64,000 nt of DNA. Origin: Escherichia coli. Its GTDB lineage: Bacteria; Pseudomonadota; Gammaproteobacteria; Enterobacterales; Enterobacteriaceae. Shown here piece after piece: positions 1,890 through 54,391 of the stretch. The notes below the pieces were generated by a model, which made no database searches, was not told the DNA's origin, and saw only the letters and a list, made by a program, of their open reading frames with translations. A program made the position numbers and the translations under genes. The DNA lies in NCBI RefSeq assembly GCF_002854065.1, contig NZ_CP024147.1; one strand, given 5' to 3'. Within the stretch, counting starts at the first letter, position 1, and each line of letters starts with the position of its first letter.

Positions 1890-2894
<1,005 letters not shown>

Positions 2895-2940
2895 CAAAAG
2901 CAATTTTTCCGGCTATCTGTATACAAAAACGCCGCAAAGT

Positions 2941-2954
2941 TTGAGCGAAGTCAA
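2941..2954 (+). promoter_or_regulatory. FNR-type box TTGAGCGAAGTCAA upstream of FnrS
   Basis: Matches TTGAT-N4-ATCAA at 8 of 10 positions; centred about 41 bp upstream of the proposed FnrS 5-prime end, as expected for a class II FNR promoter. Confidence 0.6.
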
Positions 2955-2989
2955 TAAACTCTCTACCCATTCAGGGCAATATCTCTCTT

Positions 2990-3111
2990 GCAGGTGAATG
3001 CAACGTCAAGCGATGGGCGTTGCGCTCCATATTGTCTTACTTCCTTTTTTGAATTACTGCATAGCACAATTGATTCGTACGACGCCGACTTTGATGAGTC
3101 GGCTTTTTTTT
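2990..3111 (+). ncRNA. fnrS: FnrS small regulatory RNA (FNR-activated, Hfq-dependent)
   Basis: Sequence GCAGGTGAATGCAACGTCAAGCGATGGGCG...CTTACTTCCTTTTTTGAATTACTGCATAGC... ending in hairpin GCCGACTttgatgAGTCGGC plus T8; lies in the zntB-dbpA intergenic region, where fnrS maps in K-12. Confidence 0.8.
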
Positions 3112-3168
3112 GCCTGTTATTTATCAGCGTCTACCCTTTAAGAGTCCACCCAATGACCGGAGGGAAAT

Positions 3169-3342
3169 ATGACGACACTTATTTATTTGCAAATTCCTGT
3201 CCCTGAACCGATTCCTGGCGATCCTGTTCCAGTTCCCGATCCGATCCCTCGCCCGCAACCCATGCCTGACCCACCACCCGATGAAGAACCGATTAAATTG
3301 TCGCATCGTGAGCGTAGATCTGCGAGGATACGCGCCTGCTAA
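3169..3342 (+). CDS. Small proline-rich protein (57 aa), possibly the K-12 small protein annotated in the zntB-dbpA gap
   Basis: ATG preceded by GGAGGG; translation MTTLIYLQIPVPEPIPGDPVPVPDPIPRPQPMPDPPPDEEPIKLSHRERRSARIRAC. Below the 60-aa cutoff of the ORF track. Coding status unverified. Confidence 0.4.
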   Translation: MTTLIYLQIPVPEPIPGDPVPVPDPIPRPQPMPDPPPDEEPIKLSHRERRSARIRAC

Positions 3343-3371
3343 CTTTGCGTCGATGACCACGAGAATAGATT

Positions 3372-4745
3372 GTGACCGCTTTTTCTACCCTGAATGTTTT
3401 GCCTCCCGCCCAACTCACGAACCTTAATGAGTTGGGTTATTTAACCATGACGCCGGTGCAGGCCGCCGCGCTTCCGGCGATCCTTGCCGGAAAAGATGTT
3501 CGCGTGCAGGCGAAAACTGGCAGCGGCAAAACGGCGGCTTTTGGCCTCGGCTTGTTACAGCAAATTGATGCGTCGCTATTTCAAACCCAGGCTTTAGTGC
3601 TGTGTCCTACGCGTGAACTGGCGGATCAGGTGGCAGGTGAATTGCGTCGGCTGGCGCGTTTTCTGCCAAATACCAAAATTTTGACGTTGTGCGGTGGTCA
3701 ACCGTTCGGTATGCAGCGTGATTCGTTGCAACATGCGCCGCATATTATCGTGGCAACGCCGGGCCGTTTGCTGGATCACCTGCAAAAAGGCACGGTATCA
3801 CTGGATGCGCTGAATACTTTGGTGATGGATGAGGCCGACCGCATGCTGGATATGGGATTTAGCGATGCCATTGATGATGTCATCCGTTTTGCGCCGGCAT
3901 CTCGACAGACGCTTCTGTTTTCGGCAACCTGGCCGGAAGCCATCGCCGCAATCAGCGGACGAGTGCAACGCGATCCTTTGGCGATTGAAATTGACTCAAC
4001 AGATGCTTTGCCACCCATTGAACAACAATTTTATGAGACATCCAGTAAAGGCAAAATTCCTCTGTTGCAACAGTTATTAAGCTTGCATCAGCCATCCTCT
4101 TGCGTGGTGTTTTGCAATACCAAAAAAGATTGCCAGGCTGTCTGCGACGCGCTGAATGAAGTAGGGCAAAGTGCATTGTCATTACACGGCGATTTGGAGC
4201 AACGCGATCGCGATCAGACCCTGGTACGTTTTGCTAACGGTAGCGCCCGTGTACTGGTCGCGACTGATGTTGCTGCGCGTGGTCTGGATATTAAATCGCT
4301 TGAGCTGGTGGTGAACTTTGAGCTGGCGTGGGACCCTGAAGTTCATGTACATCGCATCGGTCGTACAGCTCGTGCAGGAAATAGCGGTCTGGCGATCAGT
4401 TTCTGTGCTCCGGAAGAAGCACAGCGGGCCAATATCATTTCTGACATGTTGCAGATAAAACTTAACTGGCAAACGCCGCCAGCTAATAGTTCCATTGTGA
4501 CGCTGGAAGCAGAAATGGCAACGTTGTGTATCGATGGCGGGAAAAAAGCCAAAATGCGCCCGGGTGATGTATTAGGTGCACTGACAGGAGATATCGGGCT
4601 TGATGGCGCAGATATAGGCAAAATCGCCGTGCATCCGGCGCATGTCTATGTCGCGGTCCGTCAGGCTGTTGCTCATAAAGCATGGAAACAGTTACAGGGC
4701 GGGAAGATTAAAGGAAAAACGTGCCGGGTGCGGTTATTAAAATAA
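3372..4745 (+). CDS. dbpA: ATP-dependent RNA helicase DbpA (DEAD-box, 23S rRNA-specific)
   Basis: 457-aa ORF with GSGKT Walker A and DEAD (VMDEADRML) motifs; GTG start. Confidence 0.93.
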   Translation: MTAFSTLNVLPPAQLTNLNELGYLTMTPVQAAALPAILAGKDVRVQAKTGSGKTAAFGLGLLQQIDASLFQTQALVLCPTRELADQVAGELRRLARFLPNTKILTLCGGQPFGMQRDSLQHAPHIIVATPGRLLDHLQKGTVSLDALNTLVMDEADRMLDMGFSDAIDDVIRFAPASRQTLLFSATWPEAIAAISGRVQRDPLAIEIDSTDALPPIEQQFYETSSKGKIPLLQQLLSLHQPSSCVVFCNTKKDCQAVCDALNEVGQSALSLHGDLEQRDRDQTLVRFANGSARVLVATDVAARGLDIKSLELVVNFELAWDPEVHVHRIGRTARAGNSGLAISFCAPEEAQRANIISDMLQIKLNWQTPPANSSIVTLEAEMATLCIDGGKKAKMRPGDVLGALTGDIGLDGADIGKIAVHPAHVYVAVRQAVAHKAWKQLQGGKIKGKTCRVRLLK

Positions 4746-24353: not shown

Positions 24354-24362
24354 CGAATATAC

Positions 24363-24399
24363 AAAAGGGAAAGATGCATTTCCCTTTTGTTTCTTTTTT
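24363..24399 (+). terminator. Rho-independent terminator downstream of pdxI
   Basis: AAAAGGGAAA...TTCCCTTTT hairpin followed by a T-rich run. Confidence 0.75.
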
Positions 24400-50623: not shown

Positions 50624-51616
50624 ATGCAGAGCGATAAAGTGCTCAATTTGCCGGCAGGCTACTTTGGTATTGTGTTGGGGACGATAGGAATGGGATTTGC
50701 CTGGCGCTATGCCAGTCAGGTTTGGCAGGTCAGCCACTGGTTAGGGGATGGGCTGGTGATTCTGGCGATGATCATCTGGGGATTATTGACTAGCGCATTT
50801 ATTACCCGACTCATACGCTTTCCGCATAGCGTGCTGGCGGAAGTTCGCCATCCAGTGCTGAGCAGTTTTGTGAGTTTGTTTCCGGCAACGACGATGCTGG
50901 TGGCGATTGGTTTTGTTCCGTGGTTTCGCCCACTGGCGGTGTGCCTGTTCAGTTTTGGTGTCGTGGTTCAGTTGGCTTATGCCGCCTGGCAAACTGCGGG
51001 ATTATGGCGCGGATCTCACCCTGAAGAAGCTACCACGCCTGGACTGTATCTGCCGACAGTTGCCAACAACTTTATCAGCGCAATGGCCTGTGGTGCGTTG
51101 GGCTACACCGACGCCGGTCTGGTGTTTTTAGGCGCAGGCGTTTTCTCATGGCTAAGCCTTGAACCGGTGATCTTGCAGCGTCTGCGCAGTTCGGGAGAAT
51201 TACCCACGGCACTGCGGACATCTCTCGGCATTCAACTCGCTCCTGCGCTGGTGGCCTGTAGTGCCTGGCTGAGCGTCAACGGCGGCGAGGGTGACACGCT
51301 GGCGAAAATGCTTTTCGGTTATGGACTGCTGCAACTGCTGTTTATGCTACGTCTGATGCCATGGTATCTCTCCCAGCCATTTAATGCTTCATTCTGGAGT
51401 TTCTCGTTCGGCGTATCTGCACTGGCAACCACCGGTTTGCATCTGGGGAGTGGCAGCGATAATGGATTTTTCCATACGCTGGCGGTGCCGCTGTTTATCT
51501 TTACCAATTTTATTATTGCAATACTGCTCATCCGTACTTTTGCGCTTCTGATGCAGGGAAAATTGTTAGTCAGAACCGAGCGCGCCGTTTTAATGAAAGC
51601 AGAGGACAAAGAATGA
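50624..51616 (+). CDS. tehA: Tellurite resistance protein TehA (ion channel/efflux family)
   Basis: 330 aa from [30 protein letters not shown]; ten-TM protein. Confidence 0.9.
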
Positions 51617-52206
51617 TTATTCGTGACGAAAACTATTTTACTGATAAATATGAATTAACCCGCACACACTCTGAAGTACTGGAAGCGGTGAAAGTGGTTA
51701 AACCGGGTAAAACGCTGGATCTGGGCTGTGGCAATGGTCGTAACAGTCTTTACCTGGCAGCCAATGGTTATGATGTTGACGCATGGGATAAAAATGCCAT
51801 GAGTATCGCCAACGTCGAGCGCATTAAATCTATTGAAAATCTGGATAATTTACACACTCGGGTCGTTGATCTGAATAACCTCACATTTGCTGGACAGTAC
51901 GATTTTATTCTTTCGACTGTGGTGCTGATGTTCCTTGAGGCTAAAACCATCCCAGGGCTGATTGCTAATATGCAACGTTGCACTAAACCTGGCGGTTACA
52001 ACCTGATTGTGGCGGCGATGGATACCGCTGATTATCCATGTACCGTCGGCTTCCCGTTTGCCTTCAAAGAGGGAGAATTACGTCGATATTACGAAGGCTG
52101 GGAGAGGGTGAAATACAATGAAGACGTCGGCGAGCTGCACCGCACCGACGCCAACGGTAATCGTATTAAACTGCGTTTCGCCACGATGCTGGCACGTAAA
52201 AAATGA
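51613..52206 (+). CDS. tehB: Tellurite methyltransferase TehB (SAM-dependent)
   Basis: 197-aa ORF with methyltransferase motif [11 protein letters not shown]; 4-bp overlap with the tehA stop. Confidence 0.92.
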
Positions 52207-52509
52207 CCCGGTAAGAACAAAGCGCGTGAAAATTCCCCACGCTGAGATGGTTTACTGTCCTTCTTTTCGGTAAGCATATTTTTTATCGAAGGGATGTGAA
52301 ATTAATCACAGTAGTCGAAGTTTTTTAGCAGCTTAACTTACTGAAATTTAACTACTGATGATTGACTTAGCCCCTTTTGCGGCATTGACTATGTCGTCTG
52401 AAAAGGGGCTAAAAAAATTTATTTTCACCAACACTTTTTTTGCCACAACACGAAGCGGCGCTTTTTGCTATAACTTAAAAAGTAATATAATCATCTCAGG
52501 AAACTATTC

Positions 52510-53178
52510 ATGCGTACCACATCATTTGCGAAAGTTGCAGCTTTATGCGGCTTGTTGGCTCTGTCTGGTTGTGCCTCTAAAATCACCCAGCCAGATAAAT
52601 ATTCTGGTTTTTTAAACAATTACTCTGATTTAAAAGAAACAACCTCGGCTACAGGTAAACCGGTTTTACGTTGGGTAGACCCGAGTTTTGATCAAAGCAA
52701 ATATGACAGCATCGTCTGGAACCCAATCACTTATTATCCGGTACCGAAACCTTCGACCCAGGTAGGGCAGAAAGTTCTGGGTAAAATTTTGAACTATACC
52801 AACACCGAAATGAAAGAAGCGATAGCGCAGCGTAAACCACTGGTTACCACCGCGGGGCCGCGTAGTCTGATTTTCCGTGGGGCCATTACCGGTGTAGATA
52901 CCAGTAAAGAAGGGCTGCAATTCTATGAAGTGGTTCCTGTTGCATTAGTGGTTGCGGGGACGCAAATGGCTACAGGCCACCGTACCATGGATACACGCTT
53001 GTATTTTGAAGGTGAGCTGATTGATGCAGCGACTAATAAACCGGTTATCAAAGTCGTTCGTCAGGGCGAAGGTAAAGACCTGAATAACGAAAGTACGCCA
53101 ATGGCTTTCGAAAATATTAAACAAGTTATTGATGACATGGCGACCGATGCCACCATGTTTGACGTTAACAAAAAGTAG
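52510..53178 (+). CDS. ydcL: Lipoprotein YdcL (DUF3313)
   Basis: 222-aa ORF with lipobox LALSGC. Confidence 0.85.
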   Translation: MRTTSFAKVAALCGLLALSGCASKITQPDKYSGFLNNYSDLKETTSATGKPVLRWVDPSFDQSKYDSIVWNPITYYPVPKPSTQVGQKVLGKILNYTNTEMKEAIAQRKPLVTTAGPRSLIFRGAITGVDTSKEGLQFYEVVPVALVVAGTQMATGHRTMDTRLYFEGELIDAATNKPVIKVVRQGEGKDLNNESTPMAFENIKQVIDDMATDATMFDVNKK

Positions 53179-53186
53179 TTCCAGAC

Positions 53187-53211
53187 GCGCCATCGTTAGA
53201 TGGCGCTTTTT
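53187..53211 (+). terminator. Rho-independent terminator between the convergent ydcL and ydcO
   Basis: GCGCCATC-gtta-GATGGCGC perfect 8-bp stem followed by TTTTT. Confidence 0.8.
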
Positions 53212-53212
53212 A

Positions 53213-54391
53213 TTATCGGTTTCTGTCAGCGATTAAATTCAACACCACGTAACAAACGCCTCCGGCAATTAATCCCCAAAACGCAGAACCAATCCCGACC
53301 AGCGTCAATCCACTTGCCGTTACCAGAAATGCCACCACCGCCGCGTCGCGCTCACGCTCACGCTCATTATGCAGCGCCTGATACAAACTGCCGCCAATGG
53401 TACTCAACAGCGCCAGACCTGCCAGCATCTGGATCCAACTTACGGGCAGGGCAGCCATCATCCCGGTAATGGCACTACCAAACAGACCTGCGAGCAAATA
53501 GAAAATGCCTGCAACGGCAGCTGCCAGCCAACGTTGGTCTTTATCCGGATGCGCTTCCGGGCTTTGGCAAATAGCCGCGGTGATTGCCGCAATACCGACG
53601 GAATAAACGCCGAAAGGGGAAAAAACCAGTGCCAGCAATCCAGTAAATACAATTAATGGCGAAACAGGAGCCGAATATCCGGCTGCTTTCATTGCTGCGA
53701 TACCCGGTGCGTTTTGCGATGCCATCGTCACCAGAAAAAGGGGGAGTGCAACGCTCAGGCTGTGAGCAAACGAAAAATCAGGGGTAATATAAGTGGGGAG
53801 AACGGGTTTAAAGACAACATCAGTTGTGACAACGTCACCTTGCGCGATAACGATCACGATCCCAATAATCATCGCGGCAATTACCGCATAGCGCGGCGCA
53901 ACGGCCTTGGTTGCCAGCCATACCAGCAACATACTTCCACACAACGTAAATTGACCGTCCAGACTGGCAAACGCCTGTAAACCAAAGCGTAATAAAATCC
54001 CGGCAAGCATTGCCGCCGCAAGCGAGTGCGGAATAATGCGCATCAGACGAGCAAAGAGTCCCGTTATGCCGCAGAGGACTATTAACGCGTTGGTGACAAT
54101 AAAAACGCCGATGGCTTCGTTAAGTGTTAGTCCCTGCAATCCGGTGACCAACAAAGCCGCGCCAGGCGTTGACCATGCGGTGAGAACAGGTACGCGATAC
54201 CATAATGTCAGAGTCAGCGTACTGACGCCCATTGCCAGCCCCAGCGCCGTCATCCAGCCAGAGATTTGTGCAGTGGTGGCTCCGGCGACAATCGCTGCTT
54301 GCCAGATTATTGCCGCTGAACTGGCGTAGCCAATTAATACCGCCAGAAACCCCGCCAGTAGCGTGGGTGGAGGAACAGAAAACAGACGCAT
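53213..54391 (-). CDS. ydcO: BenE-family inner-membrane transporter YdcO
   Basis: About 392 aa from MRLFSVPPPTLLAGFLAVLIGY..., highly hydrophobic multi-TM protein. The ORF-track start at 54514 is an extension. Confidence 0.85.
   Translation of the reverse strand: MRLFSVPPPTLLAGFLAVLIGYASSAAIIWQAAIVAGATTAQISGWMTALGLAMGVSTLTLTLWYRVPVLTAWSTPGAALLVTGLQGLTLNEAIGVFIVTNALIVLCGITGLFARLMRIIPHSLAAAMLAGILLRFGLQAFASLDGQFTLCGSMLLVWLATKAVAPRYAVIAAMIIGIVIVIAQGDVVTTDVVFKPVLPTYITPDFSFAHSLSVALPLFLVTMASQNAPGIAAMKAAGYSAPVSPLIVFTGLLALVFSPFGVYSVGIAAITAAICQSPEAHPDKDQRWLAAAVAGIFYLLAGLFGSAITGMMAALPVSWIQMLAGLALLSTIGGSLYQALHNERERERDAAVVAFLVTASGLTLVGIGSAFWGLIAGGVCYVVLNLIADRNR

What the first reader, a model, noticed from the sequence alone, without database searches (positions are those of the whole stretch)
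52368..52411. Long perfect hairpin in the tehB-ydcL intergenic region
An 11-bp perfect stem (TAGCCCCTTTT / AAAAGGGGCTA) encloses a 22-nt loop that carries one of two nearby TTGACT motifs, and is followed by A7 then T-rich sequence. It is not a canonical terminator, as the U-tract is displaced. It could be a protein-binding site, an attenuator, or the 3-prime end of an unannotated transcript preceding ydcL.
Basis: seen in the sequence. Interest (0 to 1): 0.3.

Follow-up and report, generated by a model that had tools for sequence, protein, structure and literature searches.

The report
U-tract-less stem-loop ending the tehAB transcript
The hairpin is real and conserved, and is most likely an ordinary RNA stem-loop marking and protecting the end of the tehAB message just upstream of the ydcL promoter; related bacteria carry a classical terminator at the same spot.

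Summary
The window is E. coli O157:H7, and a perfect 12-bp inverted repeat (52367-52378 / 52401-52412, 22-nt loop) lies between tehB and ydcL. It is single-copy, present in about 5,400 of 5,426 E. coli genomes, and matches no Rfam family.

Upstream regions of ydcL were compared in 80 Enterobacteriaceae species. Most carry a strong hairpin whose 3' end lies about 95-106 nt before the ydcL start.
- **Enterobacter, Leclercia, Klebsiella/Raoultella, Trabulsiella, Yokenella:** a canonical GC stem followed by a T-run.
- **Citrobacter/Salmonella:** an unrelated stem with no T-run, kept by compensatory changes in 9 of 10 pairs, with U.G wobbles that pair only on the + strand.
- **Escherichia:** the reported hairpin, also with no T-run.

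Best reading (confidence 0.5): a + strand RNA stem-loop that ends and stabilises tehAB mRNA and shields the ydcL promoter. It would be the U-tract-less counterpart of an intrinsic terminator, a class described for Rho-dependent transcripts.

The main weakness is experimental. One K-12 Term-seq/Rho dataset lists no 3' end or Rho region here. The invariant loop and the ATTGACT direct repeat also remain unexplained. This is ordinary and of low interest.

The parts
52367..52378 (+). 5' arm of the stem (TTAGCCCCTTTT)
   Evidence: Perfect 12-bp inverted repeat. The core GCCCCTTTT is kept in all Escherichia lineages examined.
52379..52400 (+). 22-nt loop containing the second ATTGACT (52384-52390). 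In O157 an inner 7-bp helix (52379-85 / 52391-97) shrinks the terminal loop to 5 nt.
   Evidence: Fold. The inner helix is not conserved in other lineages. 15 of 22 loop positions are invariant in six Escherichia lineages.
52401..52412 (+). 3' arm of the stem (AAAAGGGGCTAA)
   Evidence: K-12 has ...GGGGCTGA, which gives a U.G pair.
52361..52367 (+). First ATTGACT, abutting and overlapping the base of the stem
   Evidence: Invariant (7 of 7 positions) in six Escherichia lineages. The direct repeat with the loop copy is expected 0.03 times per window. Function unexplained.
52413..52425 (+). A-run then TTTATTTT, at the position where a terminator U-tract would be
   Evidence: A-run length is polymorphic: A7 in O157, A6 in strain 4/1-1, GA5 in K-12. 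This stretch aligns with the AAAATTGTGC / AATTTGTGC block that follows the hairpin in Citrobacter and Enterobacter.
52413..52456 (+). G-poor, C-over-G stretch downstream of the hairpin (11 C, 3 G). Possible Rho-loading region; inferred only.
   Evidence: Composition count. The expectation of C>G downstream of such stem-loops comes from PMC6061677.
51613..52206 (+). tehB, the last gene of tehAB. The hairpin ends 206 nt after its stop codon.
   Evidence: ORF list. Annotation of the identical record NZ_AP018488.1.
52466..52474 (+). TGCTATAAC, an extended -10-like element of the ydcL promoter, 54 nt downstream of the hairpin
   Evidence: TTTGCTATAAC is nearly invariant upstream of ydcL across about 70 species. 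An RpoS-holoenzyme SELEX peak was reported in the tehB>ydcL spacer (PMC5493296). The promoter assignment is inferred.
52510..53178 (+). ydcL (DUF3313 lipoprotein), the downstream gene

Best explanation
The element works as RNA on the + strand. It is the 3'-terminal stem-loop of the tehAB transcript. It sits at the position where other Enterobacteriaceae have the intrinsic terminator that separates the upstream gene from the ydcL promoter. In the Escherichia/Citrobacter/Salmonella branch the U-tract is absent, so the hairpin alone should not release RNA polymerase efficiently.

Proposed mechanism (inferred, not shown):
- Transcription from tehAB runs past the hairpin into the 303-nt untranslated spacer.
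- It is stopped there by Rho, or only weakly by the hairpin itself.
- 3'-to-5' exonucleases trim the RNA back to the base of the stem.
- The stem then protects tehAB mRNA and defines its steady-state 3' end.
- The net effect is a stable tehAB message and a ydcL promoter insulated from upstream read-through.

Shown here: the hairpin, its conservation, the positional equivalence with terminators, structural selection on the equivalent hairpin in sister genera, and the strand.

Inferred: that tehAB transcripts reach it, that Rho and exonucleases are involved, and that it insulates ydcL.
For: 1. The hairpin is strong and non-random.

2. It is single-copy and present in 5,406 of 5,426 complete E. 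coli genomes.

3. In 80 species, the best single hairpin in the -150..-76 window upstream of ydcL has a median of -17.2 kcal/mol, against -11.25 for an equal window inside the ydcL CDS.
- Its 3' end lies mostly 95-106 nt before the ATG.
- In Enterobacter, Lelliottia, Leclercia, Klebsiella/Raoultella, Trabulsiella, Yokenella and Pseudenterobacter it is a GC stem followed directly by a T-run.
- This holds whether the upstream gene is tehB or an unrelated 532-aa ORF.

4. In 17 Citrobacter/Salmonella sequences a hairpin of different sequence occupies the homologous position and also lacks a T-run.
- 9 of 10 pairs show compensatory double changes and 92.9% of cells are paired.
- 0 of 500 shuffles reach the observed values, and slid registers give only 26-52% paired.

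5. Strand. In that set, 17 wobble cells pair only on the + strand, against 3 A.C cells that would pair only on the - strand. In Escherichia the counts are 8 U.G cells against 2 A.C mismatches by my reading of the alignment.

6. All Escherichia lineages keep a hairpin of -16.7 to -24.6 kcal/mol.
- There is one T-A to C-G double change.
- Escherichia sp. MOD1-EC7003 keeps the stem through a register shift, even though it has lost the 128 bp between tehB and the hairpin.

7. The arms and loop are 67-75% invariant across six lineages, against 28% for the proximal 3' UTR.

8. Published precedent (PMC6061677). Steady-state 3' ends of Rho-dependent E. coli transcripts lie just downstream of stable stem-loops without U-rich tails.
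- These stem-loops protect against PNPase and RNase II.
- They are followed by C-over-G sequence.
- The authors propose that terminators can switch class by losing uridines.
- Here, 52413-52456 has 11 C and 3 G.
Against: 1. No experimental 3' end.
- The curated Term-seq tables of Adams et al. 2021 (three growth conditions) contain no 3' end annotated to tehA, tehB or ydcL.
- They contain none at MG1655 coordinates 1,501,400-1,502,599.
- Their Rho-region table has no entry there either.
- This may reflect weak tehAB expression, but it is a failed test.

2. Within Escherichia alone, covariation is no better than shuffles. Sequence conservation could explain the stem there.

3. The loop and the two ATTGACT copies are as conserved as the stem. 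A purely structural 3' hairpin does not predict this.

4. A 22-nt loop is unusually large for a terminator-type hairpin, and its inner helix is not conserved.

5. The C-over-G stretch overlaps the strongly conserved ydcL promoter region. Its composition may have nothing to do with Rho.
Confidence: 0.5

Rival explanations
1. Leader element of a long ydcL transcript. A promoter upstream of the hairpin, for example one served by the conserved CRP-type site at 52295-52310, makes a roughly 150-nt 5' UTR. In that UTR the stem-loop would control ydcL mRNA stability, processing or read-through.
For: - A perfect CRP core, TGTGA-N6-TCACA, lies 57 nt upstream of the stem. It is expected 0.06 times per window and is 88% invariant in Escherichia.
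- An RpoS-holoenzyme SELEX peak was reported somewhere in this spacer (PMC5493296).
- Wobble asymmetry places the function on the + strand, which also fits a ydcL leader.
- The whole spacer RNA folds unusually well (z = -4.7).
Against: - No convincing -10/-35 pair lies between the CRP site and the hairpin by my reading of the sequence. The scan finds none.
- Escherichia sp. MOD1-EC7003 has lost the CRP segment but keeps the hairpin.
- Citrobacter and Salmonella have a hairpin but no such segment.
- Other genera have plain terminators at this position.
- There is no U-tract, no conserved alternative pairing and no Rfam hit.
- The promoter-like element conserved across genera lies downstream of the hairpin.
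Confidence: 0.15
2. DNA-level regulatory site. A protein would recognise the inverted repeat or the two ATTGACT direct repeats (23-bp period) to regulate ydcL or tehAB. On this view the RNA hairpin is incidental.
For: - Both ATTGACT copies are invariant in the Escherichia lineages.
- The repeat is unlikely by chance: 0.03 expected, though this is a post hoc pattern.
- Loop sequence is conserved as strongly as the stem.
- The element lies 54 nt upstream of the putative ydcL -10.
Against: - The arm sequence is not conserved outside Escherichia, while the pairing is.
- Variants are U.G-type, which breaks DNA symmetry.
- 12-bp arms separated by 22 bp are atypical for a dimeric operator (general knowledge).
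- No regulator with this motif was identified. Neither TTGACT has a usable -10 at 16-18 bp in the lineages compared (reading).
Confidence: 0.12
3. Decayed terminator with little present function. The ancestral intrinsic terminator lost its U-tract, and the stem persists in Escherichia mainly through low divergence. It would act at most as a pause or a very weak terminator.
For: - Canonical terminators occupy the same position in other genera.
- Covariation within Escherichia is not significant.
- No 3' end or Rho region appears in the K-12 dataset.
- The locus is dispensable in some strains: IS1 replaces the spacer and ydcL in strain E66.
Against: - The U-less hairpin in Citrobacter/Salmonella is actively maintained by compensatory changes.
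- The Escherichia hairpin is 67-75% invariant, against 28% for the adjacent 3' UTR.
- It survives a register shift and a neighbouring 128-bp deletion.
Confidence: 0.15
4. Part of a small RNA on the minus strand, as in the predicted Shigella flexneri candidate Ssr15, which spans the SF1779/tehB spacer on the strand opposite to the flanking genes.
For: - Ssr15 was predicted from a promoter plus terminator in this spacer (PMC4782007).
- A terminator-like hairpin exists on the - strand at 52242-52224.
- The - strand hairpin RNA is also stable.
Against: - Ssr15 is not among the candidates marked as RT-PCR-validated.
- Wobble pairs favour the + strand 17:3 in Citrobacter/Salmonella and 8:2 in Escherichia (for the Escherichia mismatches).
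- The - strand terminator-like hairpin is not conserved in other Escherichia lineages.
Confidence: 0.03

Closest known systems
[quoted passage not shown]
   Same: - A stable stem-loop downstream of an operon's last gene, with no U-rich tail.
- Mild C-over-G composition downstream.
- The evolutionary relation to intrinsic terminators that the authors proposed (switching by loss of uridines) is visible here across genera.
   Different: - No mapped 3' end and no bicyclomycin-sensitive read-through has been reported at this site.
- The loop is much larger (22 nt) and its sequence is conserved.
- The stem is followed by an A-run.
Canonical intrinsic (Rho-independent) terminators
   Same: - A stem-loop after a stop codon, on the sense strand.
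- It occupies exactly the position of canonical terminators upstream of ydcL in Enterobacter, Leclercia, Klebsiella, Trabulsiella and Yokenella.
   Different: - No U-tract follows the stem. A-run then TTTATTTT follows instead.
- The stem is half A-U.
- The loop is 22 nt.
- The consensus scan does not call it.
REP/BIME and other extragenic palindromes that stabilise upstream mRNA
   Same: An intergenic palindrome that could block 3' exonucleases.
   Different: It is single-copy in every genome and shows no similarity to a repeat family. It is therefore not a member.
5'-leader attenuators and riboswitch expression platforms
   Same: A hairpin upstream of a coding gene on the sense strand.
   Different: - No U-tract, no conserved alternative structure and no Rfam match.
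- The conserved promoter-like element is downstream of it.

Membership tests
Intrinsic (Rho-independent) terminator | Stable stem-loop on the transcribed strand downstream of a gene | tested here: met
   12-bp perfect stem, -24.1 kcal/mol for the hairpin alone, ending 206 nt after the tehB stop.
Intrinsic (Rho-independent) terminator | U-rich tract of about 7-8 nt immediately 3' of the stem | tested here: not met
   The stem is followed by AAAAA then TTTATTTT. The consensus scan finds no terminator here on either strand.
Intrinsic (Rho-independent) terminator | Short loop (typically 3-8 nt) and GC-rich stem | tested here: not met
   The loop is 22 nt. The inner helix that would shorten it is not conserved. 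Only 5 of the 12 pairs are G-C.
Intrinsic (Rho-independent) terminator | Precise RNA 3' end mapped at the site | tested here: inconclusive
   None is listed in the Term-seq tables of PMC7815308. Low expression cannot be excluded.
Protective 3' stem-loop of a Rho-dependent transcript | Energetically stable stem-loop not followed by uridine-rich sequence | tested here: met
   The class is defined in PMC6061677.
Protective 3' stem-loop of a Rho-dependent transcript | C-over-G composition immediately downstream (rut-like) | tested here: inconclusive
   C/G = 3.7 over 52413-52456 and 2.0 over 80 nt. However, C content is only about 20-25% and the stretch overlaps the conserved ydcL promoter.
Protective 3' stem-loop of a Rho-dependent transcript | Steady-state 3' end at the base of the stem, and read-through when Rho is inhibited | tested here: inconclusive
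   No 3' end and no significant Rho region are reported at the locus in PMC7815308. The supplement of PMC6061677 is not held.
Protective 3' stem-loop of a Rho-dependent transcript | Longer 3' tails in pnp or rnb mutants | not testable with these tools
   This needs RNA-seq of exonuclease mutants.
REP/BIME-type repeated extragenic palindrome | Many dispersed copies per genome | tested here: not met
   Exactly one place per genome in 5,406 genomes, using the 71-nt query in sensitive blastn.
Curated RNA families (Rfam 15) | Match at or above the gathering score | tested here: not met
   The best overlapping hit is Fwd6_3p_UTR at 23 bits against a gathering score of 79, E = 2.7.
Transcription attenuator in a 5' leader | Promoter upstream, terminator hairpin with U-tract, and a mutually exclusive alternative structure | tested here: not met
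   There is no U-tract. The one candidate alternative pairing (52318-34 with 52403-19) is weakened by an indel in K-12. No promoter was found upstream by scan. No TSS data were available.
Palindromic operator for a dimeric DNA-binding protein | Arm sequence, not just complementarity, conserved among relatives, and a short fixed spacer | tested here: not met
   The arm sequence is replaced entirely in Citrobacter/Salmonella while pairing is kept. Wobble variants break DNA symmetry. The spacer is 22 bp.

The most novel reading that the evidence does not exclude
The hairpin may be more than a passive 3' end. Together with the two invariant ATTGACT repeats and the conserved perfect CRP core 57 nt upstream, it could form an Escherichia-specific regulatory module. 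One form would be a CRP-dependent upstream promoter whose leader hairpin gates ydcL expression. Another would be a sequence-specific RNA- or DNA-binding factor that reads the conserved loop.
Probability: 0.1. Interest if true: 0.4.

Novelty: new member of a known kind. Interest (0 to 1): 0.15.

Why it matters
The practical value is modest. The work gives an unannotated 3' boundary element for the tehAB operon. It also gives a clean comparative example of one intergenic position holding either a canonical terminator or a U-tract-less stem-loop in different Enterobacteriaceae. That pattern supports the published idea that terminators drift between the intrinsic and Rho-dependent classes by gaining or losing uridines. 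It does not open a new question. The conserved CRP-type site and the ATTGACT repeats may be worth a look by anyone studying ydcL regulation.

Tried and rejected
- **Rfam scan of 51500-53400 at a permissive E-value:** only chance-level hits.
- **Repeat family or mobile element:** rejected. The element is single-copy per genome.
- **Small ORF 52358-52615 (85 aa) covering the hairpin:** rejected. It has no obvious ribosome-binding site, it overlaps ydcL out of frame, and 1-nt indels in K-12 and other lineages break the frame.
- **TTGACT as a -35 element:** the loop copy has no usable -10 at 16-18 bp in any lineage. The first copy could only pair with GACTAT at a 19-bp spacing (reading). The scan reports no promoter there.
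- **Alternative long-range pairing 52318-34 / 52403-19:** weakened by an indel in K-12, so treated as chance.
- **Minus-strand sRNA (Ssr15):** a prediction only, not validated, and the wobble asymmetry argues against it.
- **Covariation within Escherichia:** not significant.
- **Searches for experimental ends:**
  - No supplement is held for PMC9023263, PMC6061677, PMC8848933 or PMC4161252.
  - Supplements of PMC12207403, PMC4782308 and PMC6131387 returned no hits. I cannot tell whether the relevant E. coli tables or coordinate systems are included, so these carry no weight.
  - PMC4288677 is not held.
- **Coordinate correction:** my first coordinate search of the Adams tables used the frame of a K-12 derivative (1,501,4xx-1,501,9xx). 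The ydcO rows suggested that MG1655 is offset by about 600 bp, so I repeated the search for 1,502,0xx-1,502,5xx. Both were empty.
- **Literature search for tehB with CRP:** nothing relevant.

Full report
**1. The observation**

The window is E. coli O157:H7. The tehB-ydcL spacer is 100% identical to NZ_AP018488.1, where tehB and ydcL flank it. In window coordinates tehB is 51613-52206 and ydcL is 52510-53178, both on the + strand.

The reported hairpin is present.
- The perfect stem is 12 bp rather than 11: TTAGCCCCTTTT at 52367-52378 and AAAAGGGGCTAA at 52401-52412. The loop is 22 nt.
- TTGACT occurs at 52362-52367 and 52385-52390.
- The A7 run is 52411-52417 and overlaps the last two stem pairs. 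TTTATTTT follows it.
- As RNA, the + strand of 52340-52440 folds at -26.7 kcal/mol (z = -5.0) and the - strand at -24.4 (z = -3.75).
- The hairpin survives in the fold of the whole 309-nt spacer.
- A perfect inverted repeat of at least 12 bp with a 3-40 nt loop is expected 0.08 times per simulated window.
- The consensus scan reports no terminator at the site on either strand.

**2. What it is not**

- It matches no Rfam family. The best overlapping hit scores 23 bits against a threshold of 79.
- It is not a repeat element. A 71-nt query finds exactly one place in each of 5,406 of 5,426 complete E. coli genomes, and the full spacer is likewise single-copy.
- The 85-aa ORF that covers it is broken by 1-nt indels in K-12 and other lineages.
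- I could not build a credible promoter around either TTGACT.

**3. Comparative evidence**

A protein-guided scan for ydcL in one genome per species returned 80 loci from Escherichia to Cedecea. tehB is the upstream gene in Escherichia, Citrobacter, Salmonella, Kluyvera, Trabulsiella, Yokenella and others. In most Enterobacter, Leclercia and Klebsiella/Raoultella the upstream gene is different, for example a 532-aa ORF in Enterobacter asburiae.

All these loci share a promoter-proximal frame. TTTGCTATAAC lies about 40 nt before the ATG and a CATTTTTTGYCACAAC block lies further upstream.

Just upstream of that frame, most species carry a strong hairpin whose 3' end lies 95-106 nt before the ATG. 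The median best single-hairpin energy in that window is -17.2 kcal/mol, against -11.25 in an equal window inside the ydcL CDS. Three versions of the hairpin occur.
- **Canonical terminator.** In Enterobacter, Lelliottia, Leclercia, Klebsiella/Raoultella, Trabulsiella, Yokenella and Pseudenterobacter it is a GC stem followed directly by a T-run, for example ACTGCCCGG...CCGGGCAGT CTTTTT.
- **Citrobacter/Salmonella.** The stem has a different sequence, for example TCTGCGTTCAGCA-TTTTTTTG-TGCTGAGCGCAGA. It is followed by an A-rich stretch or mixed sequence, not a T-run.
- **Escherichia.** The stem is the reported one, again with no T-run.

**4. Structural selection and strand**

In 17 Citrobacter/Salmonella sequences, 9 of 10 predicted pairs show compensatory double changes.
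- 92.9% of cells are paired.
- 0 of 500 shuffles reach the observed pairing, covariation score or double-change counts.
- Sliding the 3' partner drops pairing to 26-52%.

So a U-tract-less hairpin at this position is under selection for pairing. In that set, 17 cells are U.G or G.U pairs valid only on the + strand. Only 3 are A.C cells that would be wobbles on the - strand. This places the function on the strand of tehB and ydcL and argues against a duplex-DNA palindrome.

Within Escherichia (eight distinct sequences) the stem core GCCCCTTTT/AAAAGGGGC is simply conserved.
- There is one T-A to C-G double change and eight U.G cells.
- The statistics do not exceed shuffles.
- Every lineage nevertheless retains a hairpin of -16.7 to -24.6 kcal/mol.
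- Escherichia sp. MOD1-EC7003 keeps it through a one-base register shift with added C-G pairs. It has also lost the 128 bp that separate the tehB stop from the hairpin in other Escherichia.

Across six lineages, the arms and loop are 67-75% invariant. The proximal 3' UTR is 28% invariant and the promoter region 52430-52509 is 90% invariant.

**5. Mechanism**

The simplest reading is that this is the 3' stem-loop of the tehAB transcript. It would be the positional counterpart of the intrinsic terminator that other genera place in front of the ydcL promoter, but without the U-tract.

Dar & Sorek (PMC6061677) described this class.
- Steady-state 3' ends of Rho-dependent E. coli transcripts lie just downstream of stable stem-loops that lack uridine-rich tails.
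- Those stem-loops protect the RNA from PNPase and RNase II.
- Sequence downstream shows C-over-G usage.
- The authors suggest terminators can switch class by changing uridine content.

Here the 44 nt after the hairpin have 11 C and 3 G. That stretch overlaps the conserved promoter region, so I treat this only as compatible. The involvement of Rho and exonucleases, and the insulation of ydcL, are inferences.

**6. Evidence against, and gaps**

The Term-seq and Rho tables of Adams et al. 2021 (PMC7815308; files stored uncut) contain no 3' end or Rho region annotated to tehA, tehB or ydcL. They also contain none at 1,501,400-1,502,599, which covers both plausible MG1655 frames for the spacer. 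In the excerpt of the 3'-end table returned, consecutive rows run from 1,492,156 to 1,504,927. This is a real negative, although weak expression of tehAB could explain it.

Other 3'-end or TSS supplements were not held or returned nothing interpretable.

The conserved loop and the ATTGACT-N16-ATTGACT repeat (0.03 expected) are not explained by a purely structural role.

An RpoS-holoenzyme SELEX peak has been reported in this spacer (PMC5493296). It most simply fits the TGCTATAAC element downstream of the hairpin.

A Shigella study lists a predicted, unvalidated sRNA candidate (Ssr15) across this spacer on the opposite strand (PMC4782007).

**7. Rivals**

- **ydcL leader fed by an upstream promoter.** A perfect CRP core at 52295-52310 makes this worth stating. 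It is weakened by MOD1-EC7003 and by the genera that have the hairpin without that segment.
- **DNA-binding site.** This is weakened by pairing-without-sequence conservation and by the wobble pattern.
- **Functionless relic.** This is weakened by the covariation in sister genera and the elevated conservation.
- **Minus-strand RNA.** This is weakened by strand asymmetry and lack of validation.

**8. Verdict**

The feature is real, conserved and unannotated, but of a known and common kind. Interest is low (0.15). I file it as a new member of a known kind, with confidence 0.5 in the specific mechanism.

Noticed in passing
window 52295-52310: A perfect CRP-type core, TGTGA-AATTAA-TCACA, lies in the tehB-ydcL spacer 57 nt upstream of the hairpin. 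It is the only such match in the window (0.06 expected). In six Escherichia lineages it is invariant except for two spacer positions. I could not identify a target promoter.
   Followed up: partly
window about 52229-52356; L003 2324-2350: Escherichia has about 130 bp more between the tehB stop and the hairpin than Citrobacter/Salmonella (spacer about 300 bp against about 165 bp). Escherichia sp. MOD1-EC7003 has a 128-bp deletion of this segment, including the CRP-type site, but keeps the hairpin.
   Followed up: partly
window 52463-52476 and the equivalent position in L003-L082: TTTGCTATAAC(TT), about 40 nt upstream of the ydcL ATG, is nearly invariant across about 70 species. It resembles an extended -10 / sigma-S-type -10 with C at -13. 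The E. coli-specific TATAAT at 52486-52491 is not conserved elsewhere.
   Followed up: partly
L028, L040, L052 and others, about 15-35 nt upstream of the ydcL ATG: Many non-Escherichia genera carry a TGCATA-N3-4-TGCA-like palindrome between the conserved -10-like element and the ydcL start. Escherichia lacks it. It could be an operator.
   Followed up: no
L085 (E. coli GPEC996), about 286-330: A 21-nt tandem duplication (CTTTTTCGGCATTGACTATGT) lies inside the hairpin of one chicken isolate. It adds a third ATTGACT and lengthens the loop.
   Followed up: no
L086 (E. coli E66) 2553-4700: The spacer is cut 52 nt after tehB by IS1 copies, and hokD follows. The hairpin and ydcL are absent from the 5-kb stretch fetched around tehB, so they appear dispensable.
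   Followed up: no
window 53179-53212, compared with L002 3971-5749: The O157 window has ydcL directly followed by ydcO. K-12 carries the IS609 remnant (a tnpA pseudogene plus insQ/TnpB) between them.
   Followed up: no
window 53187-53206: A canonical terminator, GCGCCATCGTTAGATGGCGC followed by TTTTTATTAT, lies in the 34-bp gap between the convergent ydcL and ydcO genes. It contrasts with the U-less hairpin after tehB.
   Followed up: no
window 52224-52242 (- strand): A terminator-like hairpin on the minus strand lies just after the tehB stop (GCGTGGGGAATTTTCACGC plus GCTTTGTTCT). A promoter-like TTCACA-16-TATGCT at 52300-52273 overlaps the CRP-type site. The hairpin is not conserved in other Escherichia lineages. 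It may be what led to the Shigella Ssr15 prediction.
   Followed up: partly
window 24361-24390: This is the only other perfect 12-bp inverted repeat with a short loop in the window: ACAAAAGGGAAA / TTTCCCTTTTGT with a 6-nt loop. It is probably a terminator.
   Followed up: no
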